Assembly: GCA_001567515.1 (NCBI GenBank) | Contig: LLEV01000006.1 | Span: 69,039-133,038, forward strand | From: Microgenomates bacterium OLB22 | GTDB lineage: Bacteria; Patescibacteriota; Microgenomatia; UBA1406; HO2-37-13b | Reading direction: 5' to 3' | Length of the DNA stretch: 64,000 nucleotides | Part shown: in pieces, positions 1-41,376 of the stretch | Layout: each line of letters begins with the position of its first letter | Position numbering within the stretch: position 1 is the first letter of the stretch | Notes under the pieces: model-generated | The model's database searches: none | The model's input: only the letters and a program-made list of their open reading frames with translations | What the model was told of the DNA's origin: nothing | Translations under genes and position numbers: made by a program

Positions 1-510
1 AAAAGTTCCGTTGTGCCTATCTCAGTAACAAGTCCTTCTCCTGAGCCTACATCATCTGTGCTTGAAAACACTGCCTCAGTTAGGGGAGCCAGAGGTATCT
101 TCACTGTCCAGATAGATACCGTCAAACGATATACAGTCGGAAGCACCATTGACGTCTATGTATATGCAAATTCGCAAGATGAGATCGTAAAGGGCTTTGA
201 TGTAGTACTTTTGTATAGTCCCTCAGTAAGTTTAGTGCGGACAGAAGGGTTGCTATCAAACTTCGACTATCTTAACTATGTAAAGGATCAGACGATATAT
301 GTCACTGGGGCACAAAAGCTACGTATTAATGATGTTTCGGTGTTGAAAAATGAAGCTATCGTGAAATACACCTTTACCGCTCTAACAAAAGGTATTGCAT
401 CATTTAAAATACTTCATAGACAAGGACTTATAACTGACTCTAATATGACAGGAAGCCAGAACATCGATCTGCTAAGTACTGTTACCAATGCACAGATCAC
501 CATAGAGTAA
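1..510 (+). CDS. Cohesin-domain surface protein, 5'-partial (frame open to the window edge)
   Basis: Track ORF 13..510 stays open in frame back to nt 1. The beta-rich module 'TIDVYVYANSQDEIVKGFDVVLLYSPSVSLV...AIVKYTFTALTKGIASFKI' follows the cohesin-type pattern also seen in the next ORF. Confidence 0.55.
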   Translation, partial: KSSVVPISVTSPSPEPTSSVLENTASVRGARGIFTVQIDTVKRYTVGSTIDVYVYANSQDEIVKGFDVVLLYSPSVSLVRTEGLLSNFDYLNYVKDQTIYVTGAQKLRINDVSVLKNEAIVKYTFTALTKGIASFKILHRQGLITDSNMTGSQNIDLLSTVTNAQITIE

Positions 511-1295
511 TGAAAGTAGAAACAAATCAAATGACTGTGTATACTGTTTTTATATCTATGCTAAGGACAAGTAGTTCACTCTGTATTCTCATTCTTTTTG
601 TTATGTTTTTTGTACCTGTGAAAGCATTTGCGGTAGCCTCTCTTGGTCTTGATCCAGAGACCATCAGTACCACAGCTGGGCAGGAGATCAGTGTTGGAGT
701 GATCGTTGATGCCGGGACTGATCAAATCCTAGGAACTGATGTCAAATTGCAATATGATGCATCTATCTTACAAATTGTGAATATATCTGATGGTACATAT
801 CTTCCAATTGGTAAAAAACTTACCAATGAGCCCGGGATGATCTATATTGCCGGTATAGTTGAGTCAGCGGGACAAACTAAAACCGGGAAGGGGACGCTTG
901 CAACTGTCAAATTCAAAGCTCTCAAAAATGGGAGTGTTACCCTATCTTTTCTTTGTCAGGAAAATCAGACAGCTGGAGATTCAAACATCGTCAACAACGA
1001 CGTAAGCCCAAAAGACATAATTAGTTGTTCTGATAATGGGAGCTCTGTGGTGACAGTTGGGACAGGAGGGGCTATAGCGACACCAGTGCCCACATCTGCC
1101 TCTAGTGGCAGTGGTAGCGGAGGCGGATCATCTAGCTCGTCTGGATCTTCGAGTTCAGGTGGGACTGGTGGTAGTGACGACGACTTGCCAGACGAACTGC
1201 CTCGTTCAGGTCTTGCTACACAGTTGTTATTCGTTGGTATCCCTGGCCTATTACTAGTGTTAGCGGGTATGTTGGCCCGTAGGTTTTTAGTGTAA
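510..1295 (+). CDS. Cohesin-domain protein with signal peptide and C-terminal LPRSG-TM-RR sorting signal
   Basis: N-terminal hydrophobic segment ends in 'VKAFA-VAS'. Cohesin-like core 'ISVGVIVDAGTDQILGTDVKLQYDASILQIV...GTLATVKFKALKNGSVTLSF'. A Gly/Ser linker is followed by 'LPRSG' (1197-1211), a hydrophobic helix and 'ARRFLV'. Confidence 0.65.
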   Translation: MKVETNQMTVYTVFISMLRTSSSLCILILFVMFFVPVKAFAVASLGLDPETISTTAGQEISVGVIVDAGTDQILGTDVKLQYDASILQIVNISDGTYLPIGKKLTNEPGMIYIAGIVESAGQTKTGKGTLATVKFKALKNGSVTLSFLCQENQTAGDSNIVNNDVSPKDIISCSDNGSSVVTVGTGGAIATPVPTSASSGSGSGGGSSSSSGSSSSGGTGGSDDDLPDELPRSGLATQLLFVGIPGLLLVLAGMLARRFLV

Positions 1296-1305
1296 GATCT
1301 TTTCT

Positions 1306-1920
1306 ATGTACATCACGAAAGAAAAAGTACTCAAATGGTCAGCTATTGCTCTTGGAGTAATTTTAGCGGGGTTACTACTGTGGCTTGTTTTTCAATATAT
1401 CCAGAGGTCCAGAGCCTCAAATCTCACTGCTGCTGATGTAAAGATTTCTGATATCACCAGCAACTCGTTTACTGTGTGCTATCAAACAACTAGTGGTCTT
1501 ACCCCTGTCGTCAAATATGGCACAGACCCGGCAAATCTCAACTTACTTGCCCCGCCAACCTCAGTGGTTGACGTGGACGGAGGAGAGTCACTTTATTGTC
1601 ATAAGGTCTTCCCATTAGTTGGACCCACGTATCATGCAATTGTCCAATTGAGCCCGGATAATGAAGTGGATAATGCAGGGACACCATTTATGATAAACCT
1701 GCTTTCAGGTTCAGCGCAGCCACCTGTCCCAACATCAGCAGTAGCAGTTTCTCCAACTACGCTTTTGATTCCTACGAGTGCAGCAGCTCCTACTACTGTT
1801 GCGCCGACCGTTGACTTTAAGTTGTGCTGTCCTGTGGACGCAAATAGCGATGGTCAAGTAGTGGATATACCTTCTGGATGCACTGCATTTGATGCGATCC
1901 GTTGTAAACAGTCAAAGTAG
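1306..1920 (+). CDS. N-terminally anchored FN3-like surface protein with Cys-rich C-terminal tail
   Basis: One TM helix is followed by 'QRSRAS'. 'SDITSNSFTVCYQTTSGLTPVVKYGTDPANL' is FN3-like. A Pro/Thr/Ala linker precedes the tail 'CCPVDANSDGQVVDIPSGCTAFDAIRC'. Confidence 0.5.
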   Translation: MYITKEKVLKWSAIALGVILAGLLLWLVFQYIQRSRASNLTAADVKISDITSNSFTVCYQTTSGLTPVVKYGTDPANLNLLAPPTSVVDVDGGESLYCHKVFPLVGPTYHAIVQLSPDNEVDNAGTPFMINLLSGSAQPPVPTSAVAVSPTTLLIPTSAAAPTTVAPTVDFKLCCPVDANSDGQVVDIPSGCTAFDAIRCKQSK

Positions 1921-1930
1921 TAGCTTTCTA

Positions 1931-2548
1931 TTATCCACCAATCAGGATCCCTACTGTCTTTTGAATAAGAGGTACAATATAGAGCTCTAGCATGCTTTTT
2001 GAGCCTGTCAAAGGAAGCATGAAGAACAGGAGAAACCATATACCATATCTCTCTAGCTTTATCCATTCTGAAGCCTGATCTTTGGAGAGAAGCCCTAGTA
2101 CTACTTTAAATCCATCCAGTGGGGCAAATGGAAGCAGATTAAAAATCGCTAACATCACGTTTACGTAGATGAGTAGCCCCAGAAAGGCTGAAAACATCCC
2201 AAATGGAACTAGACGTATGATAAGTGCAGCTAATATAGCACAAGCGATATTGGTCATCGGACCTGCCGCGGCAACAAGAGCACCATCTCTTCGAGGGTGT
2301 GAGAAGTTATACGGGTCAAAGGGGACTGGCTTAGCCCATCCAAACCCAACTAAGAGAAATAGTAACGATCCCCAGGGGTCTAAATGAGCACGTGGGTCTA
2401 GTGTTAGCCTACCATATGCCTCAGGAGTAGGATCGCCGAGTGAGTCAGCAGCTTTTGCATGCGCAAACTCGTGTATAGTAACAGCAATGATAAAACAGAC
2501 GATAGCTATGAGTGCACTTAGTGGATTGGAAAATAGTTGGGTCAACAT
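1931..2548 (-). CDS. Site-2 protease family (peptidase M50) zinc metalloprotease
   Basis: Multi-pass membrane protein with the HExxH motif 'HEFAHA' and 'LDPRAHLDPWGSL...NLLPFAPLDG', typical of small M50 proteases. Confidence 0.75.
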   Translation of the reverse strand: MLTQLFSNPLSALIAIVCFIIAVTIHEFAHAKAADSLGDPTPEAYGRLTLDPRAHLDPWGSLLFLLVGFGWAKPVPFDPYNFSHPRRDGALVAAAGPMTNIACAILAALIIRLVPFGMFSAFLGLLIYVNVMLAIFNLLPFAPLDGFKVVLGLLSKDQASEWIKLERYGIWFLLFFMLPLTGSKSMLELYIVPLIQKTVGILIGG

Positions 2549-3699: not shown

Positions 3700-6600
3700 T
3701 TAGTGACGCGAGCTGGTCGTATTTTTATGCTGATATTGTATCACAAAGATCATAAGAGCAACCCAAAAGGCATACCCAATGTACTGTAGGTATTGAGGCA
3801 TGAAGACTATCATGACGTTGGTGCTATCTAATTTTTCTGCAGTAGGGAGCTTCCATGCATTTGCCCATCCTTGTGCTTTGAAATGGGAGAGCTTTTCCCC
3901 CAGGAAGGGAAAAAGGAGGTGGTGAGCTTTCTTTTCAGTGAAGAGAAATGCTTGCCAACCCGGATCAAATGATTGTGGTAAGGTAATGTAAGAGTCATCG
4001 CCATAAATAAGCGGATAAGTCCGATACAGCCAACTATCTAGTCTCTCAGGCCTTTCAAGGGCGACGATCCCGCCTGATGTATGCTCTTTAGTGAGTTTTA
4101 ACCCTGTTATCAAACGATAGGGAAAAGGATGAAGTGAGAGACCCTTTACTAGAGCCCTACTCAACTCACCATTGAATGATTTTCCAACGATATGAAAGCC
4201 ATATCCTTCAAAAAAGTCCTGAGTAGGAGGTATGACGATGACGTGTGTCCCACTCTCATTGAGTCGCACATCTATTTCTGCTCTTTTTTCAAAGGGATTA
4301 TCTACATAGAAGGTGACAGGAAGCCCACCAGACTCTTTCTCCAGAGAAATAAGAGCTACATACGCCTGATTGTGGGCTAGAGGTTCGAGGTACCAAGCAG
4401 TATCGATCGATCCACAGCGGGCTTGGATCTGAAGCCCTTTCATTGTCTCAGTGGCTGATGCGGTCCGATCTCTGCATGGGCTAATCAAACTCGAAGTATC
4501 AGCATAGCTTTTTAGCCCAGGCTTACTAGTCAGTATGTCTGAGTCGTATGAAAGGGAAGCAGCAAGCGGGACAGTCACAGAAATTTCTTTTATCCCCTCT
4601 GCAATTGGTAATTCGGGAAGGGCGATTGATGGAGACAATGAGAACGCAGCTGAATCACTGACGGCCCCAGTCGAATCTACAACTTGTATAAGATGCTCCT
4701 TACTATCTAGTGCATAGATCTTATCTAGAAGAGCCGGTGTGCCATCAATAACTATGGAAGCATAATCTTCAACACTAGTTATCAGTGTAGAGGTCGTTGG
4801 GCTGTTCGATAGCGCCTTTTCATTGATTTGTATCTGGAGCGGTATTGTTTCCATCTGTAGCTCATCTCCGCTTCGAGCAAATCTGACATAGCTAGTGCGC
4901 TCTACCTCTGGTAACACAAAGGAGTATCCAGAGGACAAGGGAGGATTAAAAGTATGTGAAAATATGATGCCATCTTTGCTTATCTGAGAAGTCCATCCTT
5001 TTTTCTTTCTTTTTCGCTATATAGTCCGGGGAAAGGAATCACAGTGGAAGGATCATTGGTGGTGATGGAGTAAGAGATCTCAGGTGGGGCTTGATAATAG
5101 AGATCTTCACCAAGCCGGACTTGTATTGGCTTTTCAAATGCGTTAGGCCAATCAGAGGAAGGGACTTTCTGATATACCACCAGTGGAGTTGCCTCAAATG
5201 ACTTGATCAGTGATGGGATTTTTTCAAAAAATCGATAGAGTCGGTCGGTAGATATATTCTTTTCACTTAGTACGTTAATCGTGGACTCATCGATCAGTAA
5301 GTATGAGACATCATATCTAGTGAGTAGTGACTCAAACGCTGCAGCATCTTCACTCCGGATAGCATAGGCCGCCTCATTGTAAAATTGTTCGTTTTGACGA
5401 CTCCAGGGGTCAAATGCACGCAGTAGTATGGGCTGAGGTAGTCCATACCAGAGAAATCCAGAGCCTCGATAACCCCAATTACGGAACTCCCAGTTCCAGT
5501 AGGTATGGGCAGGCAGTGCCATGATCCGTTGATGAGGGGGCTGATCATTGAAAAAAACGCATTACATTGCGGTAGCCATCAGGTAGCTTCACACGTACAG
5601 CAGGTGAGACAAAATTGCCACTAAAAGCCGGGATAAAAAGTAGGATAGTGATAGCGATTACTACGGTGATGAACCACCGTGATACGAGGCCCATTTCTTT
5701 TAGTAGTACTTTTACCTGGGTCAAGCCATAAGCAAGAAAAAGTGTGTAGGCAAAAATAAAGGCAGTTATACACTTGGTGAAGGGTATGCGATAGGCTTCA
5801 GCAAAAAAGGGGAGGACCTGCCGAGAGAGGGAGAGGACCGGTTTCCCTAGGAAGGAGTTGTTAGCAAGCAATACGCCTGTGAGTAAAAAGCCAATGAGAA
5901 GGGCGACGCCAATAGGGCGTGTTGGTCTATGTCTGAGGCTGTAGAAAAGACCAAAAAAAACGAGAACGATGATCACAGCTATCAGGGTCTTTCCAAGTGT
6001 ACTATTTCTAGTTGTTCTCCATGCTTGCATAAGTGTGATGTTTTGTTGCAAGCGGGCATCATATTCGATGGTATCGAACATGTATCCCTCGAGCTTTAGG
6101 ACTGAGAGGGCTGATCCCCGAGCCATATTTCGGGCGTAGAGCTCGTCTGAGGAAAATTCGTTGATTCGGGCCTGCTGGATGACTGGTCCTTTAGTGGGGA
6201 CATTGAGAAAAAAGGGAAGAGCCCAGGCGCTGTGGACAGTGGTATAGATTGCGCAGAGTAAGAGAAGTCCATGATACTTTTTTTGCCCGATACTGATAGC
6301 TACCCAGAAGAGGCCCAAGATGATTGATTGGACAATAAATAGGGTTGGGACAAAGCCACTAGCAAGCGTCAGGAAGGAAGAGAGGGTGAAGAATACTAGA
6401 TTCTTTTTTGATTGCTCACGGATGAAGCGGAGTCCCGTATAGGCAAGAAGTGGCATAGCCACATGGTGATAAGTAAATACTTCTAGTGGTGCTATAAATT
6501 GCTGTATTGTCCCGATATTTGTCATATACCAGAGCCCTGCGATGATAGATATAGGTCTGGAAAGTTTTAGTGCAGCAGCTAGTCTATACATGAAGTAGCC

Positions 6601-6978
6601 ACCGAGTGTCCAGAGTGAAAAGGTGATTACATAGCGGACAAGCGAGTCGGGGAGGACTAACGTGAGTAGCCAAGTGATGAGGACGTGGCTTAGTGTAGCT
6701 CCGTGCGCGAGGCCATCATAGGTCCCTAGTCCTCGATAATCCTGCCATACAGAGGAAAAGGCTCTTTGTAGGTTGAGTAATGGATTGAACTCAGGAGCGA
6801 TAGTGTCCCATCCTAATAAATGAGTTCCAAAAGTGTAGTTGGTGAGGAAGGTGATGAGGCCGAGAGCAAGGAAGATGATAAAAGGGCGATCTGCAATAAA
6901 GCGCCCCATCCGACCTATCCATCTCATGGGTTTATTATAGTTGAAAGATGGGGAGTTGGTTAAATTGGTTTTTGTCAT
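3700..6978 (-). pseudogene. Large GT-C-type membrane glycosyltransferase-like protein (about 1090 aa) split into three ORFs by two homopolymer indels
   Basis: 5545..6978 encodes about 12 TM helices. 4980..5522 ('YDVSYLLIDE') and 3700..4938 (final TM helix) continue it. Removing one A from the A7 run at 5551-5557 joins pieces 1 and 2. Adding one T to the T6 run at 4999-5004 joins pieces 2 and 3. The family assignment (AftD/DUF3367-like or related) is tentative. Confidence 0.55.
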
Positions 6979-13768: not shown

Positions 13769-13964
13769 AGCTCTCTCCTCTTAGCGTGTAGTAAACGAGT
13801 TCTAAAAGTGCTGGGTGAATTATACTATATCGCAGCTAAAAGGGAAGTATGTATTATTGTAAGAGATAGGTGAAACTCTACAGACTATAAGATCTATCAT
13901 TAGCTTGCATATTGGATAAGGTATGATATACTTGCGGCATATTAGAAATACAATCACAACAGTT

Positions 13965-15521
13965 ATGGAAAGATACGTATACCGCAACCCAGATGACACA
14001 GCGGGAGGAAGTGGCGATGAGTCTACAAAGTCACTAAGACTCCCTAAACGTGAAGAGCCAAAGCCCGCAAGCCTAGCTCTTCGATATATTGACGCCCCTA
14101 AGCCAAGAGGCGTAGATGATGCTGTGCTTCGTCGTTTGGAATCAGCACGTGCCACACTCCAACTAGTCGGAGAAACACGTCTCGGGGCAAATACCGCGAT
14201 ATTCAACTCTGGTGAGCTCGTACAAGCAGTTGACACTATGGTACATAAAGGAGTTATTGAGGCTTTGCAGATAGATCCAGAAGCCTATGAGCTACTATTC
14301 AATCTAGCAACACATGACCCTTTGATCAAAACTGCGTTAGTACGACTTCAAGAGCAGTTGGGTACTTATGATGTCCCTATCATACCCGCTCCTGACCTTG
14401 ATGAGGAAACTCTAAAAGAACAAGTGGGTCGAGTAAAAGGCGATCTTCTTGCAAACAATCCTCTTGTTTTGGCAGCTGCTCAATCATCGGTACATGGCAT
14501 GCTCCATCTCGTCCATCAAGCTGAAGGAATGACACGAGAACAGGCTGAAGAGCTACTTGAAGGTGCACTAGATGCCATAACTGATCTTACTCCGACGCCA
14601 GGGAAAGCAGACTCTTACAAAGGTCCAAAAGGGACCGCGCTGCTTGCTTGGCACAAATTGCGAGGAGGATACCCAGTAGATCACTATGACTTTGGAAGAG
14701 ACACCTTGTTCCCCCCAGAAGTGCTTGAATATGCTCAAGATAATCCACTGTATAGGGCACTTGTTTATAAAATGATAGCAATTTCAGCAGCAGTGATTAG
14801 AAATCAGGAACAGATCGAGCAAGTATCTAAGGCATTAAAGGCTCAAGTCGATGTAGTCTTCAATCCATATGATAAAGCTATAGCCAAAGTTATCGATGCG
14901 TATACAGTTGAGGTGGCATATAAAGAAAGAGACGCTTCGGGTAAAGAAGTGATAGTCAAAAGAAAAGTTCCTCTAGATGTCGCTCTCTCTCATCATGGGG
15001 ACAGAGTATTGGCAGCTCGAAGAGCTCTTGAAGGTCAGGATGCTCAATTGATAAGTGGTCAAGTGATAGATCCTAAAAAAACTAAGGAAATTGGAAGAAG
15101 TTTGAGGGATGCTACTAGTCACAGGCAGAGATTAGCAGAACAAAAGTCGAAGGCTGATGCTAGACTCAGGACCATTATTCTCGGTGAAATGGCAGACACC
15201 AAAGCGCTAGAAGGACAACAGAGCCTACTTGATACTGCCAGACGAGATCTTGGAAATTTGCTTAGAGAGGGACTCTTCACTTCAGTAAGTATGGTGGCTG
15301 TTGGAGCAGAGTTGAATGACGCTTATGTACGACTTCGTACTGCTCGTCAGGCACTCAGTGAGTCTCAGGTACAACAACAGGTCGCCGAAAGTATGCAAAC
15401 AGTCAACCTTCGTATAAAAGGGATGGTAGATGATGCTATGGTACAGACTGAGGAAGCCCAAAGAGCTCGTGAGATTCATGAGCGCGCTCGACGTCAGATC
15501 TCGGCCTCAAGCCAAACATAA
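13965..15521 (+). CDS. Hypothetical, largely alpha-helical/coiled-coil protein
   Basis: Long ORF (track 13923..15521; the first plausible Met is 'MERYVYRNPDD' at 13965). Charged helical C-terminal third. No recognisable family. Confidence 0.5.
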   Translation: MERYVYRNPDDTAGGSGDESTKSLRLPKREEPKPASLALRYIDAPKPRGVDDAVLRRLESARATLQLVGETRLGANTAIFNSGELVQAVDTMVHKGVIEALQIDPEAYELLFNLATHDPLIKTALVRLQEQLGTYDVPIIPAPDLDEETLKEQVGRVKGDLLANNPLVLAAAQSSVHGMLHLVHQAEGMTREQAEELLEGALDAITDLTPTPGKADSYKGPKGTALLAWHKLRGGYPVDHYDFGRDTLFPPEVLEYAQDNPLYRALVYKMIAISAAVIRNQEQIEQVSKALKAQVDVVFNPYDKAIAKVIDAYTVEVAYKERDASGKEVIVKRKVPLDVALSHHGDRVLAARRALEGQDAQLISGQVIDPKKTKEIGRSLRDATSHRQRLAEQKSKADARLRTIILGEMADTKALEGQQSLLDTARRDLGNLLREGLFTSVSMVAVGAELNDAYVRLRTARQALSESQVQQQVAESMQTVNLRIKGMVDDAMVQTEEAQRAREIHERARRQISASSQT

Positions 15522-15530
15522 CCTTAACTT

Positions 15531-16697
15531 ATGTCCAAAGAAAGCGCCATTTTTCAGCTAGAGAAGCAGCTGCGAGAAGGGCGTGGTAGTACAGTGGAAG
15601 AACAATTGCGTCGTAGTGTCGAGGCGGAATTTGATATAACTCCGCGTCTCTCCGAGCGTATTCCCATTACTGATTTTTCTACTAGCTCTACTCCTTTTGC
15701 CCCTACTGAATCACTTTTCGCACTTGAGAGGAGTGGTTCAACCGTAAGAGCCCAGAAGGGGACGATATTCAAACGTCTTGCTCTGGCAGCTGGAGTTGGT
15801 GCAGCCCTCTTTATCGGTTCCGGCTATACTGGTGATACCAACGCAGACGACGGAGCGACTAAAGAACGGATTGTACTCGAGCCACGCGTTATAGGTGACG
15901 GAGAACCCTATGTATATACAAATGATGGCCCTGAGGAGGTGAAAATAGGTCCGACGCCTACTGTTGAATTCCTCGAAAGGGAAGATTCTCCAACACGGAT
16001 AGATATCCCCTGGCTTCCTCGAAACATAGCCTTTTGGAACGCTCTTATCGAAGAGAGATACTCATTTTATGGCATAGATCCTGATCTAGGGGCTCTTATC
16101 CAGCTCATGGAGTCAGGTGGATCTCCTGATGCGGAGAGTGGACAGGCAAGTGGTCTTATGCAGATAGCCCCCGGCACAGCTAGAGGGTTTATTCCACAAC
16201 TCGGTATGTCCAGGACTGACCTTTCCGATCCCGAGGTCAGCGCGACCCTTGGAGCGTGGCATAGCTACACTGATCTCCAGCACGCTGGCATTAGTGATGG
16301 GTCGGACAATAATTCCCCAGACAAAGATACCCACTGGAAGCGCACAGTAGGTCTTGCAGGTGCCTCATATAATGGTGGGAAGGGAGCGGTAGACTACTAC
16401 AAGAGGAATGGACGTTTCCCGGACAATACCCAGACAGGCATCTATCGTGAATTTCTGGAGACAGTCTGGCCACTGCGCCATGATGCGAGTGTGACGTATC
16501 CTAGAATTGAGGTGATCTATAATGAGATCTCGCTGAAATATGGCGTGAATGCCGCATTGAGTTACCTTCAGAAGAAGGCTGTAAAGCAGCTCGATGAGCG
16601 TTATCCAAATTGGCGCACCGAGTCCTATACTCCACTATATAGCACATGTGATATGATCTCCAATCCCGCTATCCTCGCGCTAGGGAAGTGCAAATAG
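15531..16697 (+). CDS. Membrane-anchored lytic transglycosylase (SLT domain)
   Basis: 'LMESGGSPDAESGQASGLMQIAPGTARGF' carries the catalytic E-S and GLMQ motifs of SLT/GH23. One TM segment, 'LALAAGVGAALFIG'. Confidence 0.7.
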   Translation: MSKESAIFQLEKQLREGRGSTVEEQLRRSVEAEFDITPRLSERIPITDFSTSSTPFAPTESLFALERSGSTVRAQKGTIFKRLALAAGVGAALFIGSGYTGDTNADDGATKERIVLEPRVIGDGEPYVYTNDGPEEVKIGPTPTVEFLEREDSPTRIDIPWLPRNIAFWNALIEERYSFYGIDPDLGALIQLMESGGSPDAESGQASGLMQIAPGTARGFIPQLGMSRTDLSDPEVSATLGAWHSYTDLQHAGISDGSDNNSPDKDTHWKRTVGLAGASYNGGKGAVDYYKRNGRFPDNTQTGIYREFLETVWPLRHDASVTYPRIEVIYNEISLKYGVNAALSYLQKKAVKQLDERYPNWRTESYTPLYSTCDMISNPAILALGKCK

Positions 16698-20228: not shown

Positions 20229-21906
20229 ATGCCGCTTTTATGTGGGTATTTTGCGGTGCGATTTAGGTCGCCAACAGTTATTGGCTATATCATCGCTGGC
20301 TTTTTTATAGCCTTACTTAAAGAAGCTGATGTCTCTTCAGTTGTATCTTTCTTTGCTAATTTAGGACTCTTACTGCTGCTTTTTACATTAGGACTCGAAT
20401 TGGACATAACTACTCTGCGTAGACATGGCCGGGTGGTCGTATTAGCGGGCTTATTACAGGTAGGTCTTACTACAGTTGGAACGATATGCCTTTTGGCATT
20501 TTTTAACTTTAATCTCACTACTGCATTGTTACTGGGGTTTGCTTTGTCACTTTCTTCTACAGCGGTTGTGTCCAAGATCATACAGGAGCGAGGAGATGAA
20601 CACACACTACCGGGTCAGCTGGCTATAGGTATCCTCATTCTGCAAGACATAGTTGCAATCCCAGCTATACTTGTGATCTCATCATACAACCCCGATCTAG
20701 CCAAGCCTGATCTCTTCATAGCAGTATCTGCCTCCGTGTTGAAATCGATAGGTATCCTAGGCCTTATGTACGTATTTGGGGAGCGCGTCATCCCACAAGT
20801 CTTTGAAAAACTAGGAAAGGTCTCACGAGAGCTTATGAACTTGTTTACTATTGTATTTATCTTTCTACTTGTAGGGATATTTCGTTATTTAGGTCTTTCT
20901 ACGGGACTAGCTGCATTTTTCTGCAGGACTCTTGATCGGACAAACGGCACAGCACTATCATATCTTTTCCCAGATACGCCCACTACGAGATGTCTTTGTA
21001 ATACTATTTTTTGTCTTCTTAGGGGTAAGTACCAACCTGGGATTATTAGCACATCAGTGGGTGAGCATAGTCATATTTTCCCTCTGCCTGGTACTTCTCA
21101 AGATAGCCATCATGATCGTTGTGCTCACTAAGATGAAATATAACTCTCGTACAGTTTTCTCAGTTGGGCTCTTTTTGTCCCAAGTTGGAGAGTTTGCCTT
21201 TATCTTGTTAAGGGAGGGGCATATGAAAGGGCTTATCTCGGCAGATGCCATGGCATTTGGGACAGGTGTGAGCTTGATGACTCTGTTAATCTCACCGTAT
21301 CTTATTCAGCACCATTTGTTTTTATATAGACACGTACGTAGTATCATAAAAAATCATGTTCCTTTGCTAGAGGAATTCATCGCCTATCGTATTGATAGAG
21401 AGGGGAGTGCCTCTCGAGGTATAGCTACAGCGCATACCGATCATGTGATCTTGTGTGGGTATGGACGGGTAGGGAGCTATGTAGGAAGGGCCCTTACACT
21501 CTCGAATGTGCCGTTTTGTGCTATTGATTACAATCAGCACATAGTACAAAAGGAGAGACAGGCTGGTACGGATATCATATACGGTGATCCAACGAGTGTC
21601 GACATACTCGATATGGCAGGAGTAAAAGAGGCAAAAGCTCTTATCATCGCTCTTCCAGACAATTTTTCTCAAGAACTAGTCTTGCTTTCAGCCAGGAAGA
21701 AAAATCCAAAGATCATGATCTTTGCACGTGTTAGGCAGAAGGATGAGCAGCTGAGGCTAAAGTCACTTGGAGCAGATGTAGTCATCCAACCTGAGTTTGA
21801 GGCGGCACTTTCACTCGTGAAGAAAATTATGCTTGCAAAACATATGAATGCCGAGGATATCCAGGGTAAGATCAAACGCTTAAAAATAGAACATGGTATG
21901 GCCTGA
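20229..21906 (+). pseudogene. Kef-type cation:proton antiporter with C-terminal RCK/TrkA-N domain, frameshifted
   Basis: Transporter TM helices in 20229..21131 continue in 20932..21906 ('AGLLIGQTAQHYHIFSQIRPLRDVF'). Rossmann-like 'HVILCGYGRVGSYVG'. A single extra base at or beside the T5 run 20916-20920 separates the frames. Confidence 0.7.
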
Positions 21907-26524: not shown

Positions 26525-27109
26525 ATGAATTACACTCCACTACCAGAAGGGCTGTCTTCTATTAACGAATCTCCTGTACATAGGGGAGTGGCATCACACA
26601 CCTTAGTCACGGGTCTCAAGGGGCTGGTTGTGGTCGTACTTACGGTTGCGGCTGGGCTTTCTACAGCAACCCTCATCCGTAATGCGGTAACGTTGCAAAA
26701 TAAGGCAGAAGAACAAAATCAGGTTGCTATGTGTACTGGACAAGGTGGAGTCGTCTGGGACGGTCAGACGTGTCCGGATGGTGCACAGGAGGTCAATAAG
26801 ATCGTTACTCAGATCGCTGCATCAAGCCAGGACGCCACATCACCATCTGATGGGACCGTAACTGTGCCGCAGGATGGTACTGCTAGTGGCGATGGTATAT
26901 CTAGCAGTTTACAGCCCGCTACACGCGTTCAACTTTGTTGCAAACTACATACCACACTACCTACGACATCAAAAGAAGATACTACACCGGTCGAACCTAC
27001 ACCGTCACCAAGTGTTTCGGAGCCAGCTCCAACTGAAGCGGAGCGATGTGAATTGCCAGGCATAACTACTATTTTAAGTTGTCCAGAAGGATGTAGCTCT
27101 ACGCGTTAA
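26525..27109 (+). CDS. Surface-operon gene 1: anchored Cys-containing protein with PT linker and C-terminal C..SCPxxC tail
   Basis: TM helix 'LVVVVLTVAAGLSTATLI' followed by 'LQNKAEE'. Tail 'CELPGITTILSCPEGC'. The stop abuts the next ATG. Confidence 0.55.
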   Translation: MNYTPLPEGLSSINESPVHRGVASHTLVTGLKGLVVVVLTVAAGLSTATLIRNAVTLQNKAEEQNQVAMCTGQGGVVWDGQTCPDGAQEVNKIVTQIAASSQDATSPSDGTVTVPQDGTASGDGISSSLQPATRVQLCCKLHTTLPTTSKEDTTPVEPTPSPSVSEPAPTEAERCELPGITTILSCPEGCSSTR

Positions 27110-28456
27110 ATGAGCCAATTATTAGTACTACTAGGAGTGTTGAAGAAAGACAAAAGGATCTTGCTATTGTCACTTATCACGATAGCTCTTATAGTGGGAG
27201 CCTTCTTGACATCTTTTTGGGTTGTCCAAAATAAAGCAACGGTACGTAATAGGGCTGCCGAACCTCTGTCATGTCAGCCTATCTATGCCAACTGTAGAGT
27301 ATCTTGCGAAGACTTGAGTAGTGAAGCCAAAAACACCAAATATCTAATCTCTGTTTACAAAAATGTAGGTGGCAAGAGAGTCCCCGAGGAGCCGATCGCA
27401 TCGACAGAGTATAGTTGCTCAGACAGTACCAGGGGCCCTCTCGCTTTCTCCACGGGAGTGCCTGTCGCACTGCAAGAAAGCGAAGAAGTAGAGTGTGAAG
27501 TACGACAAATACACCTGAACCAATCTTGTGTCGCTAAGTCTGACAAACAGACGCAACAATGCGTTAAGCCAGGGGGTGAGCCGACACCGGCCCCCCCACA
27601 GTCTTGTGCATGCAGCCCTGAAGATGGCTGTACTCTCATCCGTGAAGATATCAATAAAAAATACGTGGGGAAACAGGGCCCTGGTCTTGTTGAAATAAAG
27701 ATGCAGTTTCCTGCCTGTTTCAACTGCGATTATGCAGTTGTAAAAGATGCTGCCGGCAAGGAGGTACGTAGATATCAATGTGATGATACCATACGCTACC
27801 ATCAGGCTCAGGTAACAGCGTGTACTACCTATAAGACCGAGTTAGTTGCCAAGGATGGGACTACTAGAACTTGTCAGACATGCGAAAAGGAAGTATGTTG
27901 TCCATCGTGTCAGCCGCTTGAGCAGCTCCCCTCTCTATCTGCCGGTAGTGCCGGTGCCCGAGGCTGTGAGATCCCCAGTAGTGAAAGTCCGGGTTGTACG
28001 TTTGATATAGTTGGAGGACAGCAGTGTCCTGCAGCGGGGAGTACGGTCCAGATCAGGGTTCGACATAGAGTATCCTCTGGTGAACAAGTAGAGCACTGCC
28101 TTATGACAGATAAAGACAATGGCACTACAGGCGAAACTAAGTGTTTTAAGACTACAAAAAGCGAAGAGATCATTGAGGTGCCTTATCCTGATGCTGGTGT
28201 ATATGATCTTCGCTTGCTTTGCCGAGTTGGTGAATTCCCTACTCTCAATGGAGCAGAACCAGATCGTATTCCTGAGGGATTGAGTGATTTTGAGTGTAGG
28301 CAAAGGATGACCGTAGTTTGTGGTGCTAATACAACCCCTCCATCAGGCGGGCCTCCCCCACCCTCTTCTACTCCAACACCTGCAGCGTGTGTTCCGCTAA
28401 AACCAAAATTAAAAATCGAGTGTCCCCAGATAGGATCACAGAAAGTCTGTTTATAA
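27110..28456 (+). CDS. Surface-operon gene 2: large cysteine-rich anchored protein (paralogue A)
   Basis: TM helix followed by 'VRNRAAEP', about 30 Cys, and multiple blocks shared with 28460..29866. Tail 'CVPLKPKLKIECPQIGSQKVC'. Confidence 0.65.
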   Translation: MSQLLVLLGVLKKDKRILLLSLITIALIVGAFLTSFWVVQNKATVRNRAAEPLSCQPIYANCRVSCEDLSSEAKNTKYLISVYKNVGGKRVPEEPIASTEYSCSDSTRGPLAFSTGVPVALQESEEVECEVRQIHLNQSCVAKSDKQTQQCVKPGGEPTPAPPQSCACSPEDGCTLIREDINKKYVGKQGPGLVEIKMQFPACFNCDYAVVKDAAGKEVRRYQCDDTIRYHQAQVTACTTYKTELVAKDGTTRTCQTCEKEVCCPSCQPLEQLPSLSAGSAGARGCEIPSSESPGCTFDIVGGQQCPAAGSTVQIRVRHRVSSGEQVEHCLMTDKDNGTTGETKCFKTTKSEEIIEVPYPDAGVYDLRLLCRVGEFPTLNGAEPDRIPEGLSDFECRQRMTVVCGANTTPPSGGPPPPSSTPTPAACVPLKPKLKIECPQIGSQKVCL

Positions 28457-28459
28457 CCT

Positions 28460-29866
28460 ATGAATACATCTCTTATTAAAGATAAAAGACAACTAGCATA
28501 TCTAGGACTCATGGTACTATTCGTAGTGGTCACGCTCCTTTTTGCACTACGAGATCGTATAACCTTTTTCAATAGAGCAAGTACCCCACAACAATGCGTC
28601 CCAAGTAGTGTGAGCTGTCGTCTTGATGTTGGCTCCCCTATCTCAGGACCTTATCGACTCAAGTTGATCGATGATTCTGGAAAAGAGCTCAAGAAAAGTG
28701 AGGTTTTGGATACCGCGACATTACAAGATGTCTTGACTTACTCATTTGATGCTAGCAAGGTATGTCGCGATGGAGCAAACAGTGTGAATTGTGATAACAT
28801 TGCTGGCTTTAAATGTATTGCTGAGTACACGGACCCACAGCTCGCTCAATGTAATGCCACTACATCATTGAGAAATGAATGTACTCAGGAGGTCACCCCA
28901 ACAGTCCCCGAGCAATGTTCTTGTAGTGAATCAGGTCTTGATTGTGATGGCGGGATCAAGGAGGAGTCTTATAAAAAAGGTGACGAAGTCGGCCCTGGAC
29001 TCATCGAGCTAAACCCTCGTTTCAGCGGGCCTGCCTGTTTTGAGTGCAAACAATTAGTAGTTCGGGATAGTAAAGGTATAACTGAGACGTTTGATTGTAG
29101 TGGGTATCCAAAAGATGCCTCAGGTTTACTACTACCTACACCGACAGTAATTCGGCTACGTCAAGCGCAAGGCTCGGCTTGCATGACATATACACTCGAA
29201 TTGGAGGGTGTAACCGGGAAGACCCCAACGACATCTTCATATGGTGCTTGTGGTGAGTGTAAACAGCAAGTGTGTTGCCCTGCCTGTCAGAAGCCCACTA
29301 CCCTACCCGACCCAAATGATCCATCTAAGCTAAGTTGTTCATCTAATCAATGTAAGTTCTCATTTGTTTCCTTCCCCAACCAATGCCCACGTCCTGGCGA
29401 TACTCAGCGATATGAAGTAGCTATTAGTGCTCCAGGTACATATTGTATAGATGGCGATCAGTATGGCCAATCCAGTGCCCCCGATGACCAATGTCGCACT
29501 GTCACCGCAACAGAGCTTTCGCAAGCTGGAGGCAAGATACTATGGCAGCCATCTATCCCCTATCCTAATGCAGGGGTCTATGACGTGAAGCTGCGCTGTG
29601 ATATAGATCGACTTGATGACCACATCGTGCCTATCAAGACTCCAGAGTATTGTGTCCAGCGTTTCTCAGTGAGTTGTAATGATCGTGGAGGCCCTCCAGG
29701 AGATGGAGGCCCAGGTGAGCCTACAGAGACACCTATCCCAACAGCTACTCCAGTGCCACCGACTAAAACTCCAACGCCAACAAAGGCTATTATCACCCCG
29801 ACAGGTATTTGTACGTTAGATGGTTCCCTATTAAATGTTCGGATGAGTTGTCCTACCTGTAAATGA
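28460..29866 (+). CDS. Surface-operon gene 3: large cysteine-rich anchored protein (paralogue B)
   Basis: TM helix followed by 'FFNRASTP'. Paralogous blocks 'GPGLIELNPRFSGPACFEC', 'VCCPACQK' and 'PYPNAGVYDVKLRC'. Tail 'CTLDGSLLNVRMSCPTC'. Confidence 0.65.
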   Translation: MNTSLIKDKRQLAYLGLMVLFVVVTLLFALRDRITFFNRASTPQQCVPSSVSCRLDVGSPISGPYRLKLIDDSGKELKKSEVLDTATLQDVLTYSFDASKVCRDGANSVNCDNIAGFKCIAEYTDPQLAQCNATTSLRNECTQEVTPTVPEQCSCSESGLDCDGGIKEESYKKGDEVGPGLIELNPRFSGPACFECKQLVVRDSKGITETFDCSGYPKDASGLLLPTPTVIRLRQAQGSACMTYTLELEGVTGKTPTTSSYGACGECKQQVCCPACQKPTTLPDPNDPSKLSCSSNQCKFSFVSFPNQCPRPGDTQRYEVAISAPGTYCIDGDQYGQSSAPDDQCRTVTATELSQAGGKILWQPSIPYPNAGVYDVKLRCDIDRLDDHIVPIKTPEYCVQRFSVSCNDRGGPPGDGGPGEPTETPIPTATPVPPTKTPTPTKAIITPTGICTLDGSLLNVRMSCPTCK

Positions 29867-30606
29867 TTATGAACAAACGAATACTAATCGCTGGCGGTCT
29901 GATAGTCATCCTCATTGCCCTTGTAGCAGGACTATTCTTGACAACGCAACAGCAGGACATACGAGAACGAGCGGATGAGCCTACAGCAGCACCACAAAAC
30001 CCATTTACCTCCCCTACCCTGCCGCCTCAACAATGTGGCGGGGATGGCGGTCTGTGTGAGTGGGATGCGGTCCCGGGTGCAACAGGATATTGTTATCGTA
30101 TAGAGAAGAAAGTAGGAGATGCCTTTGTCCCCTTTATTCCTAAACTTGCTAAAGATGACTGCATCCCCACAAATGAGACTAAGGTTTCATTTACCATGGA
30201 GTCAGGTATCCCCTATCGCTGTAGCGTCAAACTAGCTGGAGTGGCATCCATTTGTGAAGCTAATTCAACCGATCAGGCAACATTGACCTGCGGGCAACTG
30301 ACACCAACATCTCCAGCTGGAACTACGACCCCAACTACTGGAGTTGGTACTCCTACAAGCATTCAGGCATCGATCACACCTTCGACCCCCTCAGGAAGTG
30401 CTTCGACAACTCCCACCACTGCTACAGTAGGGGGTGGATCTGGCCCTACTACTGCCTCATCACAAAACAATGCAAATCCTACCGCAGCTACTACCACAAA
30501 TAACCAAACTGGTTCAACGCAGCTCCCGCGTGCTGGACTACTTGATTACTCTGTTGTGATTATTGGATTGGGGCTACTTGTAGTGGCTGTTGGCTTTGTG
30601 CTATGA
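29863..30606 (+). CDS. Surface-operon gene 4: FN3-like protein with Thr/Pro stalk and LPRAG-TM C-terminal anchor
   Basis: TM helix followed by 'IRERADEP'. 'CEWDAVPGATGYCYRIEK' is FN3-like. A long T/S/P linker precedes 'LPRAG' (30523-30537) and a hydrophobic C-terminus. Confidence 0.6.
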   Translation: MIMNKRILIAGGLIVILIALVAGLFLTTQQQDIRERADEPTAAPQNPFTSPTLPPQQCGGDGGLCEWDAVPGATGYCYRIEKKVGDAFVPFIPKLAKDDCIPTNETKVSFTMESGIPYRCSVKLAGVASICEANSTDQATLTCGQLTPTSPAGTTTPTTGVGTPTSIQASITPSTPSGSASTTPTTATVGGGSGPTTASSQNNANPTAATTTNNQTGSTQLPRAGLLDYSVVIIGLGLLVVAVGFVL

Positions 30607-33066: not shown

Positions 33067-33068
33067 TT

Positions 33069-33689
33069 ATGCCGAAAATAAAAAGGCAATCCATACAGCC
33101 CTACATCCAAATGATAGTCATCGCAGCGATGCTATGTGGCCTTGCAGGTTTTGTGTACCTTATCATAAATGGTGCTTTGACACTTGATTCACAAGCAGCG
33201 CGAGAGAGACTCAGATGTGGTGAGTCCTGCAATACCAATAGAGATTGTGCTGCCTATGCCAAGAGAACAGCAACCGGTGATGTGATATCTATGCACTGCT
33301 TTACTGGGCGCTATGGGAGACATAGTGTTGGCGATGGGACTGGCTCAGTCTCTTATCGTGGGACATGTGCCCCTCGTGGTCTACGTCCTGCAAGTCGTAT
33401 ACAGGTATTTGAGTCCTGTCGAGGCCTTGAGCCATTTACAAAGTCCCGAGTAGCCCCACTAGTAAGCCCACGACCTACCAGTGGTGCAGTAAATAGGTTT
33501 GCACAGCCCACAAGAGCGAGAAGCCAAGCCATGTGTAACTCTACTTGTGAGGGAAACAGTGATTGCAGGGCAGCACATTTCTGTTATAGTTTTCGAGAGA
33601 ATGGCGCTGAGGTGAAGCGCTGTCGGTCTCGAGTGTGTCGTACAGATACGGACTGTGTTTGTGACCTGAAAGAAGCACCAGGACAATAA
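33069..33689 (+). CDS. Surface-operon gene 6: anchored protein with two CGxxCxxxxDC modules
   Basis: TM helix followed by 'SQAARE'. 'CGESCNTNRDCAAY...C' and 'CNSTCEGNSDCRAAHFC...CRTDTDCVC'. Confidence 0.55.
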   Translation: MPKIKRQSIQPYIQMIVIAAMLCGLAGFVYLIINGALTLDSQAARERLRCGESCNTNRDCAAYAKRTATGDVISMHCFTGRYGRHSVGDGTGSVSYRGTCAPRGLRPASRIQVFESCRGLEPFTKSRVAPLVSPRPTSGAVNRFAQPTRARSQAMCNSTCEGNSDCRAAHFCYSFRENGAEVKRCRSRVCRTDTDCVCDLKEAPGQ

Positions 33690-40720: not shown

Positions 40721-40761
40721 TTTTTTAGTTTAACAAATTGAAACTACATCAGTGACCAATG

Positions 40762-40845
40762 CGGAGGGTACAGGATTTGAACCTGTGTGGGATTGCTCCC
40801 ACGAGTTTTCGAAACTCGCGCATTTAACCGCTCTGCCAACCCTCC
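40762..40845 (-). tRNA. tRNA-Ser (anticodon CGA)
   Basis: Acceptor GGAGGGT/ACCCTCC, anticodon stem-loop CGAGT-TTCGAAA-ACTCG, long variable arm, T arm ACAGG-TTCAAAT-CCTGT. Confidence 0.9.
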
Positions 40846-40930
40846 TACTGAACTCAATGTGAGTTGCTGACATTGTAACAAATGAAAGGCTATTCTGCCC
40901 TTCCCTACGCTTTAGTCCATGCTCAAGGTG

Positions 40931-40939
40931 TGGTAAAAT
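40931..40939 (+). promoter_or_regulatory. Extended -10 box (TGgTAAAAT) about 9 nt upstream of tRNA-Ser(GGA)
   Basis: A sequence match only, and the -35 is weak. A mirror 'TGTTACAAT' (40872-40880, minus strand) precedes tRNA-Ser(CGA). Confidence 0.35.
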
Positions 40940-40948
40940 GCTCCTACT

Positions 40949-41036
40949 GGAAGGGTCGCATAGTGGCCTAGTGCGCACGCTTGGAAAGCGTGTAAGGGTA
41001 AAACCTTCGGGGGTTCGAATCCCCCTCCTTCCGCCA
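40949..41036 (+). tRNA. tRNA-Ser (anticodon GGA), CCA encoded
   Basis: Acceptor GGAAGGG/TCCTTCC, anticodon stem-loop CACGC-TTGGAAA-GCGTG, long variable arm, T arm GGGGG-TTCGAAT-CCCCC, terminal GCCA. Confidence 0.9.
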
Positions 41037-41376
41037 AATGGGATGCTCCCCCTTCCAACAGATGATGTAGACTGATATAACGGTCTAATCTGAGGGTTCG
41101 ATATGCCCGGATAGCTCCATACACCCAGAGAGGAAAATCGAACCAAGTAGTGTCTCTTTCTGGCTAAATGTCAGATCGTTTGTATGATTCTGCTATCAGC
41201 CATGAGCGTCTTTATACAATCGGTTATCCTGTTTACATCATGCTTTTCAAAATGTTTCGTCATGCAATGCTATTTGTGCTTTGAAGATTTTATCTTCATG
41301 TATCGTTAGCTGCTCTTTAGACATTTCATCGCATTTAAGATACACTATAAAGGAGGTATCAAAGCTTCTAAAGGCT

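What the first reader, a model, noticed from the sequence alone, without database searches (positions are those of the whole stretch)
1..1295. Cohesin-domain proteins here and a dockerin-bearing adhesin 30 kb away: cohesin-dockerin pairing without any carbohydrate-active enzymes
Two adjacent ORFs (1..510 and 510..1295) carry cohesin-like modules, and the second is wall-anchored through LPRSG. The only dockerin-type sequence in the window is the C-terminus of the vWA protein at 32908-33066, with two Ca-binding-loop segments, DVNGDGEVNTLD and DIVSDGTVNAQD. A half-dockerin-like DANSDGQVVD occurs in the tail of 1306..1920. No glycoside hydrolase is present. If the pair interacts, it would tether an adhesin to an anchored scaffold rather than build a cellulosome.
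Basis: partly seen in the sequence, partly recalled or inferred. Interest (0 to 1): 0.65.

Follow-up and report, generated by a model that had tools for sequence, protein, structure and literature searches.

The report
Surface cohesin–dockerin display cluster, CPR bacterium
The first 1.9 kb of the window is the tail end of a conserved gene cluster in an ultra-small (Microgenomates/CPR) bacterium that most likely uses cellulosome-type cohesin–dockerin "plug and socket" modules to hang a protease and other secreted proteins on its cell surface; this is a new example of a known principle, and the likeliest partners are encoded next door rather than 30 kb away.

Summary
The window comes from Microgenomates bacterium OLB22.

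- ORF 510..1295 is a genuine cohesin (Pfam 45 bits) with a signal peptide and an LPRSG sortase signal.
- ORF 1..510 is a divergent cohesin paralogue, detectable only by profile comparison. It is held by an N-terminal membrane helix.
- The C-terminus at 32905..33039 is a genuine two-repeat dockerin and the only one in the window.
- The "half-dockerin" in ORF 1306..1920 is not real. It sits in a Cys-knot tail that is not conserved as a Ca loop.
- The dockerin protein does have a vWA-like fold. As assembled, though, it is the C-terminal half of a ~820-aa gene (30603..33066) split by a 1-nt frameshift.

In 6 of 7 related lineages, dockerin-bearing proteins lie immediately upstream of the cohesin genes. 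One of these lineages is a contig about 82% DNA-identical to the window start. The upstream cargo there is an M4 thermolysin-like protease, a possible cohesin+dockerin adaptor, CARDB-domain proteins and proteins of unknown function. "Only dockerin 30 kb away" is therefore a window-edge effect.

The system resembles ScaE/Sca2-type sortase-anchored scaffoldins with non-CAZyme cargo. I class it as a new member of a known kind. No binding has been tested.

The parts
1..510 (+). ORF1, 3' 169 codons of a 202-aa protein (KXK08824.1). It has an N-terminal membrane helix (outside the window) and a divergent cohesin-like module at about 100..498.
   Evidence: Full-length protein P0052 is 100% identical. 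There is no Pfam hit. hhalign against the ORF2 family gives 96.6%, E 6.4e-10. PDB profile hits are cohesins: 5aoz, 5m2o and NagJ. AF2 predicts an N-terminal helix at residues 3-35, but the rest of the model is unusable at pLDDT 44.8.
510..1295 (+). ORF2 (KXK08825.1, annotated 'Cohesin domain protein'). Layout: signal peptide about 510..638; cohesin about 660..983 (Pfam; about 585..1061 with the lineage HMM); Gly/Ser/Thr/Pro linker about 1062..1196; LPRSG 1197..1211; hydrophobic segment plus RRFLV tail 1212..1292. Its ATG overlaps the ORF1 stop by 1 nt (TAATG).
   Evidence: Pfam Cohesin at 45.4 bits. Homologues are aligned. The LPx[ST]G signal is conserved. The start/stop overlap is visible.
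1306..1920 (+). ORF3 (KXK08826.1). It has an N-terminal hydrophobic segment, an FN3-like (Pur_ac_phosph_N-like) domain, a Pro/Thr linker and a Cys-rich tail. It follows the ORF2 homologue in every related locus whose sequence extends that far. It is the last gene of the operon, convergent with the M50 peptidase gene at 1931..2548 (-).
   Evidence: Weak Pfam hit PF16656 at E 0.011; a homologue is annotated with the same family. It follows the ORF2 homologue in all 13 loci (L001, L003-L009, L012, L013, L015-L017) where sequence extends that far. The alignment shows that DANSDGQVVD is not conserved.
30603..33066 (+). One gene of about 820 codons, split in this assembly by a +1-nt frameshift at about 31527..31530 into ORFs 30603..31556 and 31495..33066. 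Layout: N-terminal membrane/signal segment plus Cys-rich domain; Pro/Thr linker; vWA-like domain about 31855..32514; beta-sandwich about 32575..32892; dockerin 32905..33039.
   Evidence: Homologues are 780-945 aa. The N-terminal ORF matches residues 1-283 of P0055 at 49% identity, E 1e-76. The C-terminal ORF matches residues 284-817. The two parts are contiguous in one frame in L019. Dockerin Pfam score is 33.5 bits. vWA support.
29863..30606 (+). Second sortase-type substrate (LPRAG plus hydrophobic tail). It lies in the same overlapping-gene operon as the vWA/dockerin gene.
   Evidence: C-terminal motif found. Weak NCBIfam hit to a sortase-dependent surface protein family, E 8.8e-4.

Best explanation
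Window 1..1920 is the 3' end of a conserved Microgenomates (CPR) operon that builds a cell-surface cohesin-dockerin display system.

Shown from sequence:
- ORF2 is a monovalent anchoring scaffoldin of the ScaE/Sca2 type. It has a Sec signal peptide, one cohesin, a flexible Gly/Ser-rich linker and an LPRSG sorting signal.
- ORF1 is a second, divergent cohesin tethered by an N-terminal membrane helix.

Inferred from family knowledge:
- A sortase encoded elsewhere links ORF2 covalently to the cell wall.

Inferred from synteny:
- The ligands are secreted proteins carrying a C-terminal dockerin that are encoded immediately upstream.
- In relatives these are an M4 thermolysin-like metalloprotease, a possible cohesin+dockerin adaptor, a CARDB-domain protein and proteins of unknown function.

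Inferred, not tested:
- Ca2+-dependent cohesin-dockerin binding holds these proteins at the cell surface. The result would be a protease/adhesin display complex rather than a cellulosome.
- The vWA-like/dockerin protein at 30603..33066 is a possible additional ligand.
For: Domain assignments:
- ORF2 cohesin and the dockerin are both above Pfam gathering cutoffs.
- ORF1 is a cohesin paralogue by hhalign, 96.6%, E 6.4e-10, and by PDB cohesin hits.
- The sorting signal is conserved across homologues.

Synteny:
- 18 related loci were fetched.
- Among 7 distinct lineages with upstream sequence, 6 have one or two Dockerin_1 proteins directly upstream of the cohesin genes on the same strand with short gaps. 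These are L001/2/11, L003, L007, L010, L012/13 and L014-16.
- L018 overlaps the window start at about 82% DNA identity. Its ORF1 homologue P0053 is 83% identical.
- L018 gene order is rplJ, rplL, a Cys-rich protein with one dockerin repeat, a 186-aa cohesin-like protein (hhalign 90.8%), a 508-aa protein with Dockerin_1 at 49 bits, a 285-aa Cohesin at 28 bits, a 927-aa M4 peptidase with dockerin, then ORF1 and ORF2.
- M4 peptidase plus dockerin also occurs in L003 and L010.
- Loci L007 and L013 hold only the ORF2-type cohesin next to two dockerin proteins. This points to ORF2-type cohesin as the receptor for that dockerin type.

Precedent:
- R. bromii Sca2 combines a cohesin with a sortase signal and binds dockerins of amylases and peptidases (PMC4611034).
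Against: - OLB22 DNA upstream of the window could not be retrieved. The presence of the upstream dockerin genes in this genome is extrapolated from relatives.
- One lineage (L004-6) has ORF2 and ORF3 with no dockerin gene in the 2.6 kb upstream.
- No sortase gene lies in the 64-kb window.
- No binding or complex prediction could be run.
- The ORF1 structure model failed.
Confidence: 0.7

Rival explanations
1. The vWA-like adhesin with the dockerin at 32905..33039 is the cognate, principal ligand of the ORF1/ORF2 cohesins. The adhesin is thereby tethered to the wall-anchored scaffold.
For: - The dockerin is genuine and is the only one in the window.
- The protein has a vWA-like fold. Its top structural match is the pilus-tip adhesin SpaC, E 3.4e-7.
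- Its second repeat shares an x-Q-D helix start (VNAQD) with the cluster-encoded dockerins ([IV][DN][AST]QD). From general knowledge of dockerins, those positions contact the cohesin.
- The dockerin is conserved in most homologues.
Against: - No co-localisation is seen. In L019 three tandem vWA/dockerin paralogues sit in the syntenic place with no cohesin nearby.
- The cohesin cluster has its own adjacent dockerin genes in relatives.
- The two dockerin types are only 28-37% identical.
- As assembled, the dockerin ORF is separated from its signal peptide by a frameshift.
Confidence: 0.3
2. A multi-tier scaffold. The cluster-encoded cohesin+dockerin protein (508 aa in L018) acts as an adaptor. 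Its dockerin plugs into ORF2 at the wall. Its own cohesin, together with the membrane-bound ORF1-type cohesins, holds the protease and other cargo.
For: - L018 encodes a protein with a canonical Dockerin_1 (49 bits) and a weak cohesin hit (20 bits).
- The cluster holds at least four separate cohesin or cohesin-like proteins and two dockerin types.
Against: - The internal cohesin of the 508-aa protein is below the Pfam cutoff and is not supported by hhalign.
- This protein is seen in only one lineage.
- It is not verified in OLB22.
Confidence: 0.25
3. The cohesin-like modules are generic beta-sandwich surface domains that bind no dockerin. The adjacency to dockerin genes only reflects co-regulation of secreted proteins.
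For: - Many non-cellulosomal cohesin- and dockerin-like modules have no demonstrated partner (own knowledge, Peer et al. 2009).
- One lineage lacks adjacent dockerin genes.
Against: - The tight, repeated dockerin-then-cohesin gene order across divergent lineages (31-46% identity to ORF2 over the best aligned segment) is hard to explain without an interaction.
Confidence: 0.1

Closest known systems
ScaE (Ruminococcus flavefaciens) and Sca2 (R. bromii): sortase-anchored, single-cohesin anchoring scaffoldins
   Same: - The architecture matches: signal peptide, one cohesin, linker, and a C-terminal LPXTG-type sortase signal.
- Sca2 also binds dockerins of non-CAZyme proteins, including peptidases (PMC4611034).
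- Sortase anchoring of Ruminococcus scaffoldins is described in PMC11557425.
- The best PDB sequence hits of the ORF1 and ORF2 families include R. flavefaciens cohesins 5aoz and 5m2o.
   Different: - The organism is a CPR/Microgenomates bacterium, not a Firmicute.
- No CAZyme cargo was seen in the window or in the related loci.
- Sequence similarity to solved cohesins is marginal (E about 1e-3).
- The protein is paired with a membrane-helix-anchored cohesin paralogue and an FN3-like partner gene.
Non-cellulosomal cohesin/dockerin modules (Peer et al. 2009, FEMS Microbiol Lett 291:1; C. perfringens NagJ/NagH toxin complexes)
   Same: - Cohesin and dockerin modules sit on proteins unrelated to plant cell-wall degradation.
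- NagJ cohesin chains (2o4e, 2ozn, 2jh2, 2w1n) are among the PDB hits of the ORF1 profile.
- Dockerin-bearing peptidases have been reported in rumen metagenomes (PMC6487960).
   Different: - Here the modules are organised in a conserved operon with a dedicated wall anchor.
- No paper found in the library describes such an operon in CPR bacteria.
- The Peer et al. paper itself is not held and is cited from memory and from a reference list.
Sortase-pilus tip adhesins with a vWA domain (SpaC of L. rhamnosus GG)
   Same: - The model of the 523-aa ORF has SpaC as its best structural match.
- It carries a MIDAS-like D-x-S-x-T ... T ... D motif that is invariant in 13 homologues.
- It lies next to an LPRAG-anchored protein.
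   Different: - It ends in a dockerin rather than an LPXTG signal.
- It has no Pfam VWA hit.
- The TM-scores are low (0.2) because the query and targets are multi-domain.
Essential dockerin-domain envelope protein SEML1_0315 of Saccharibacteria (PMC10633639)
   Same: It is a dockerin-bearing cell-envelope protein in a CPR bacterium, and the authors speculated it serves host adhesion or degradation.
   Different: - It comes from a different CPR class.
- No cohesin partner is mentioned in that paper.
- Homology to the proteins here was not tested.

Membership tests
Cohesin (Pfam PF00963) | Profile HMM score above the gathering cutoff | tested here: met
   ORF2 scores 45.4 bits against a cutoff of 24.1, E 1.2e-11. 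ORF1 has no Pfam hit and qualifies only by remote homology: hhalign 96.6% to the ORF2 family and PDB cohesin hits at E 1.4e-3.
Cohesin (Pfam PF00963) | Nine-stranded beta-sandwich (jelly-roll) fold | tested here: inconclusive
   The AF2 model of ORF1 from a 2-sequence alignment had pLDDT 44.8 and is unusable. ORF2 was not modelled.
Cohesin (Pfam PF00963) | Ca2+-dependent binding of a dockerin | not testable with these tools
Dockerin type I (Pfam PF00404) | Profile HMM score above the gathering cutoff | tested here: met
   33.5 bits against a cutoff of 22.9, E 4.8e-8, residues 471-515. The best PDB sequence hits are dockerins 2y3n_B and 2ccl_B.
Dockerin type I (Pfam PF00404) | Two repeats, each an EF-hand-like loop D-x-[DN]-x-[DN]-G-x-[IV]-[DN]-x-x-D followed by a helix | tested here: met
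   Repeat 1, DVNGDGEVNTLD, is canonical. Repeat 2, DIVSDGTVNAQD, deviates at position 3 (V). AF2 places helices at 481-488 and 508-516 with pLDDT 70-82.
Dockerin (claimed half-dockerin in ORF 1306..1920) | A Ca-loop motif conserved in homologues | tested here: not met
   DANSDGQVVD is absent from all 6 homologues. The region is a Cys-rich motif with three invariant cysteines. There is no Dockerin_1 hit.
Sortase-anchored anchoring scaffoldin (ScaE/Sca2 type) | N-terminal signal peptide, a cohesin, and a C-terminal LPXTG-like motif followed by a hydrophobic segment and a basic tail | tested here: met
   The ORF2 sequence shows this directly. LPRSG, LPQSG, LPSTG or LPETG is conserved at the same column.
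Sortase-anchored anchoring scaffoldin (ScaE/Sca2 type) | A sortase encoded in the genome | tested here: inconclusive
   None was found in the 64-kb window, either by TLxTC regex or by Pfam scans of about 60 ORFs.
Cellulosome | Dockerin-bearing glycoside hydrolases or other CAZymes assembled on a scaffoldin, usually with a CBM | tested here: not met
   No dockerin-bearing CAZyme is present in the window or among the 11 dockerin-bearing proteins of related loci scanned with Pfam. Cargo there is M4 peptidase, CARDB or unknown.
von Willebrand factor A domain (Pfam PF00092) | Profile HMM hit | tested here: not met
   There is no VWA-family hit at E<=1 for the window protein or at E<=0.01 for 10 homologues.
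von Willebrand factor A domain (Pfam PF00092) | MIDAS motif DxSxS...T...D on a Rossmann-like alpha/beta fold | tested here: met
   D133-A-S135-E-T137, T204 and D223 are invariant in 13 homologues, except that position 137 is T or S. PDB profile hits are vWA domains with the motif aligned, but E is only 0.019-0.7. The AF2 domain has pLDDT 66-87. Foldseek top hits are SpaC and integrin beta I-like domains, E 3e-7 to 1e-4.

The most novel reading that the evidence does not exclude
Microgenomates, and possibly other CPR bacteria, carry a dedicated, conserved 'proteolosome/adhesosome'. It would be a wall- and membrane-anchored set of cohesins displaying a thermolysin-like protease together with vWA adhesins. 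The cell would use it to attach to and digest the surface of a host or prey cell, or environmental protein. Cellulosome modules would thus be repurposed for the episymbiotic lifestyle.
Probability: 0.3. Interest if true: 0.65.

Novelty: new member of a known kind. Interest (0 to 1): 0.42.

Why it matters
CPR bacteria are tiny and metabolically dependent, and how they hold on to surfaces or hosts and obtain nutrients is poorly understood. This operon is conserved and lies between ribosomal-protein genes. It pairs a wall-anchored cohesin with dockerin-tagged protease and adhesin-like proteins, which gives a concrete and testable candidate for how these cells organise their surface. It also extends sortase-anchored cohesin scaffolds, so far characterised in Ruminococcus, to a distant lineage with non-carbohydrate cargo. 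The principle itself, non-cellulosomal cohesin-dockerin pairs, is already established, so the gain is one of scope and not of kind.

Tried and rejected
1. Retrieving the OLB22 contig upstream of the window failed.
   - Exact-protein look-ups of ORF1, ORF2 and the M50 peptidase found nothing. ORF3 was found only on a 1.2-kb Logan contig.
   - The genome-contig scan returned only one distant locus.
2. A profile search with the conserved beta-module plus dockerin alignment returned only short fragments (<=269 aa) and no OLB22 protein.
3. The AF2 model of ORF1 from a 2-sequence alignment was unusable at pLDDT 44.8.
4. The 'half-dockerin' in ORF3 is rejected because it is not conserved.
5. phmmer of the 523-aa protein against PDB found no vWA, and Pfam found none. 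Only the family profile plus the fold search supported vWA.
6. The internal cohesin of the L018 508-aa protein is not supported by hhalign.
7. A search for a sortase in the window found none.
8. Literature searches for cohesin/dockerin in CPR, Patescibacteria or Microgenomates found only passing mentions.
Full report
**Origin**

ORF2 of the window is 100% identical to 'MAG: Cohesin domain protein [Microgenomates bacterium OLB22]' on a 163,747-bp contig. ORF1, ORF2 and ORF3 are KXK08824.1, KXK08825.1 and KXK08826.1. The organism belongs to the candidate phyla radiation (OP11/Microgenomates).

**The observation: ORF1, ORF2 and ORF3**

- ORF 510..1295 hits Pfam Cohesin at 45.4 bits against a cutoff of 24.1.
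- It starts with a signal-peptide-like segment. It ends with a Gly/Ser-rich linker, LPRSG (1197..1211), a hydrophobic stretch and RRFLV.
- Homologues carry LPQSG, LPSTG or LPETG at the same place.
- ORF 1..510 is cut by the window edge. The full protein has 202 aa with an N-terminal helix.
- ORF1 has no Pfam hit. A profile of six family members aligns to the ORF2 family with hhalign probability 96.6%, E 6.4e-10, over 131 columns.
- The best PDB sequence matches of that ORF1 profile are cohesins: 5aoz, 5m2o and the NagJ cohesin, E 1.4e-3 to 1e-2. I therefore treat ORF1 as a divergent cohesin paralogue.
- The ORF2 start overlaps the ORF1 stop (TAATG). A relative has the same arrangement.

**The observation: dockerins and glycoside hydrolases**

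- The C-terminus of ORF 31495..33066 hits Dockerin_1 at 33.5 bits against a cutoff of 22.9.
- DVNGDGEVNTLD is at 32908..32943. DIVSDGTVNAQD follows at 32989..33024 by my count.
- A regex scan and a lineage-specific HMM found no other dockerin in the six-frame translation of the window.
- The 'half-dockerin' DANSDGQVVD in ORF 1306..1920 is not conserved in any of six homologues. That region is a Cys-rich tail with three invariant cysteines, so this claim is rejected.
- About 60 window ORFs were scanned with Pfam. The only carbohydrate-cleaving domain is an SLT lytic transglycosylase at 15531..16697, which has no dockerin.

**What surrounds the cohesins in relatives**

Exact-protein look-ups and pattern scans fetched 18 related loci. 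The recurrent gene order is:

1. one or two secreted proteins ending in a conserved beta-module plus dockerin;
2. optionally, an ORF1-type membrane-anchored cohesin;
3. an ORF2-type cohesin with a sortase signal;
4. an ORF3-type FN3-like protein;
5. then, on the other strand or further on, M50 peptidase, L28 and peptide deformylase, as in the window.

Six of seven distinct lineages with upstream sequence show the dockerin genes. L004-6 do not.

The cargo is varied:

- an M4 thermolysin-like peptidase in L003, L010 and L018;
- a CARDB-containing 1117-aa protein in L014-16;
- proteins without known domains elsewhere.

The closest relative is L018. Its ORF1 homologue is 83% identical. Its DNA is about 82% identical over the overlap with window 1..640. 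From upstream to downstream it carries:

- rplJ and rplL;
- a Cys-rich protein ending in a single dockerin repeat;
- a 186-aa cohesin-like protein (hhalign 90.8%);
- a 508-aa protein with a canonical dockerin (49 bits);
- a 285-aa cohesin (28 bits);
- a 927-aa M4 peptidase with dockerin;
- ORF1 and the start of ORF2.

The window therefore shows only the last three genes of a larger cohesin-dockerin cluster. I could not retrieve the OLB22 DNA upstream. The presence of these genes in OLB22 itself is an inference.

**The distant dockerin protein**

- An exhaustive search found 49 relatives (E <= 0.001). The closest full-length ones are 780-945 aa long, and the query aligns to their C-terminal two thirds.
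- Window ORF 30603..31556 matches residues 1-283 of P0055 at 49% identity, E 1e-76. ORF 31495..33066 matches residues 284-817.
- In the syntenic locus L019 the two parts are contiguous in one frame.
- Reading the DNA, the shift is one extra base at about 31527..31530...NGR / RAVYLGL...
- As assembled, the signal or membrane segment therefore sits on the upstream ORF and the dockerin on the downstream ORF.
- A second gene in the window is split in the same way: the Na+/H+ exchanger-TrkA_N gene at 20229..21131 and 20932..21906. This suggests assembly indels, but real pseudogenes are not excluded.

The evidence on the vWA label is mixed:

- There is no Pfam VWA hit in the window protein or in ten homologues.
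- D133-x-S135-x-T, T204 and D223 are invariant in 13 sequences.
- A family profile hits only vWA domains at the top of the PDB list with the motif aligned, at E 0.019-0.7.
- An AF2 model from 13 sequences has an overall pLDDT of 67.9. The central domain scores 66-87.
- The best Foldseek matches of that model are the pilus-tip adhesin SpaC (3.4e-7) and integrin beta I-like domains.

I accept 'vWA-like' with moderate confidence. L019 has three tandem vWA/dockerin paralogues and no cohesin nearby.

**Mechanism**

Shown from sequence:
- the module content;
- the anchoring signals;
- the conserved gene order.

Inferred from the ScaE/Sca2 family:
- A sortase attaches ORF2 to the wall.
- The ORF2 cohesin binds a dockerin in a Ca2+-dependent way.

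Inferred from synteny:
- The main ligands are the proteins encoded immediately upstream, including the M4 protease.
- Loci with only an ORF2-type cohesin next to two dockerin proteins (L007, L013) point to ORF2 as the receptor for that dockerin type.

The vWA/dockerin protein could be a further ligand. Its second repeat shares the x-Q-D helix start with the cluster dockerins. Overall identity is only 28-37%, and nothing links the two loci.

**Comparison with what is known**

- The architecture of ORF2 is that of ScaE and Sca2. Sca2 of R. bromii binds dockerins of amylases and of peptidases and was proposed as a general surface anchor (PMC4611034).
- Sortase anchoring of Ruminococcus scaffoldins is described in PMC11557425.
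- Non-cellulosomal cohesin and dockerin modules are long known. Peer et al. 2009 is cited from memory and from the reference list seen.
- Dockerin-bearing peptidases are reported in PMC6487960.
- A dockerin-domain envelope protein is essential in a cultivated saccharibacterium (PMC10633639).
- I found no paper describing a cohesin-dockerin operon in CPR bacteria. The library is incomplete.
- This is not a cellulosome, because no CAZyme cargo is present.

**Verdict**

This is a new member of a known kind, of moderate interest. The decisive checks are listed under next steps and are cheap.

Noticed in passing
window 30603..33066 (shift at about 31527..31530) and 20229..21906: Two genes are each split into two overlapping ORFs by single frameshifts, relative to intact orthologues in L019. 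They are the vWA/dockerin gene and the Na+/H+ exchanger-TrkA_N gene. This is most likely indel errors in the MAG assembly, but real pseudogenes are not excluded.
   Followed up: yes
window 26525..33689: A run of seven same-strand genes with overlapping or abutting ends encodes Cys-rich secreted or membrane-anchored proteins with almost no Pfam hits. ORFs 27110..28456 and 28460..29866 are paralogues (28% identity, E 1e-27). ORF 29863..30606 ends in LPRAG plus a hydrophobic tail.
   Followed up: partly
window ORFs at 1306, 27110, 28460 and 29863; L018 and L001 ORFs: Many of the predicted surface proteins start with a long hydrophobic segment followed by a short x-R-A-[ASD] motif (for example SRAS, NRAA, NRAS, ERAD, TRAA). 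This may be a lineage-typical signal-peptidase site. I could not decide whether these segments are cleaved signal peptides or membrane anchors.
   Followed up: no
L019 8468..15368: A related genome (GCA_964396255.1) has three tandem vWA-like/dockerin paralogues (509, 820 and 945 aa) at the position syntenic to the window's single split gene. The window's upstream Cys-rich paralogues have no match there.
   Followed up: partly
L003 (CAZLAJ010000042.1): This contig is labelled 'uncultured Gammaproteobacteria bacterium'. It carries part of the CPR-type synteny: dockerin proteins, cohesins, the FN3-like gene and M50 peptidase. It is probably mis-binned.
   Followed up: no
window 53964..54350 (-), 55193..56953 (-), 58997..59551 (-): A small protein with a PT-TG pre-toxin domain (E 3.3e-6), an ABC exporter, and a weak Peptidase_C39-like protein (21.6 bits, just below the cutoff) lie within 6 kb. 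They may form a small toxin or bacteriocin export set.
   Followed up: no
window 3700..6978 (-), 13923..15521 (+), 41377..43308 (-), 59767..62391 (-): Several long ORFs (412-874 aa) have no Pfam hit at E<=1e-4. Those at 3700..6978 look like large polytopic membrane proteins.
   Followed up: no
window 40761..41036: Two tRNA-Ser genes (anticodons CGA and GGA) lie on opposite strands about 100 bp apart. ORF 40730..41146 (-) overlaps them and is probably spurious.
   Followed up: no
window 48041..48934: A tyrosine recombinase (Phage_integrase, E 3.6e-36) is present. It could be XerC/D-like or mark a mobile element; GC content does not change noticeably there.
   Followed up: no
L018 1695..2360: A 221-aa Cys-rich secreted protein ends in a single dockerin repeat, GDVNGDGIVDLLDYSVWLNAF. 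This is a true one-repeat dockerin-like tail, unlike the rejected one in window ORF3.
   Followed up: no
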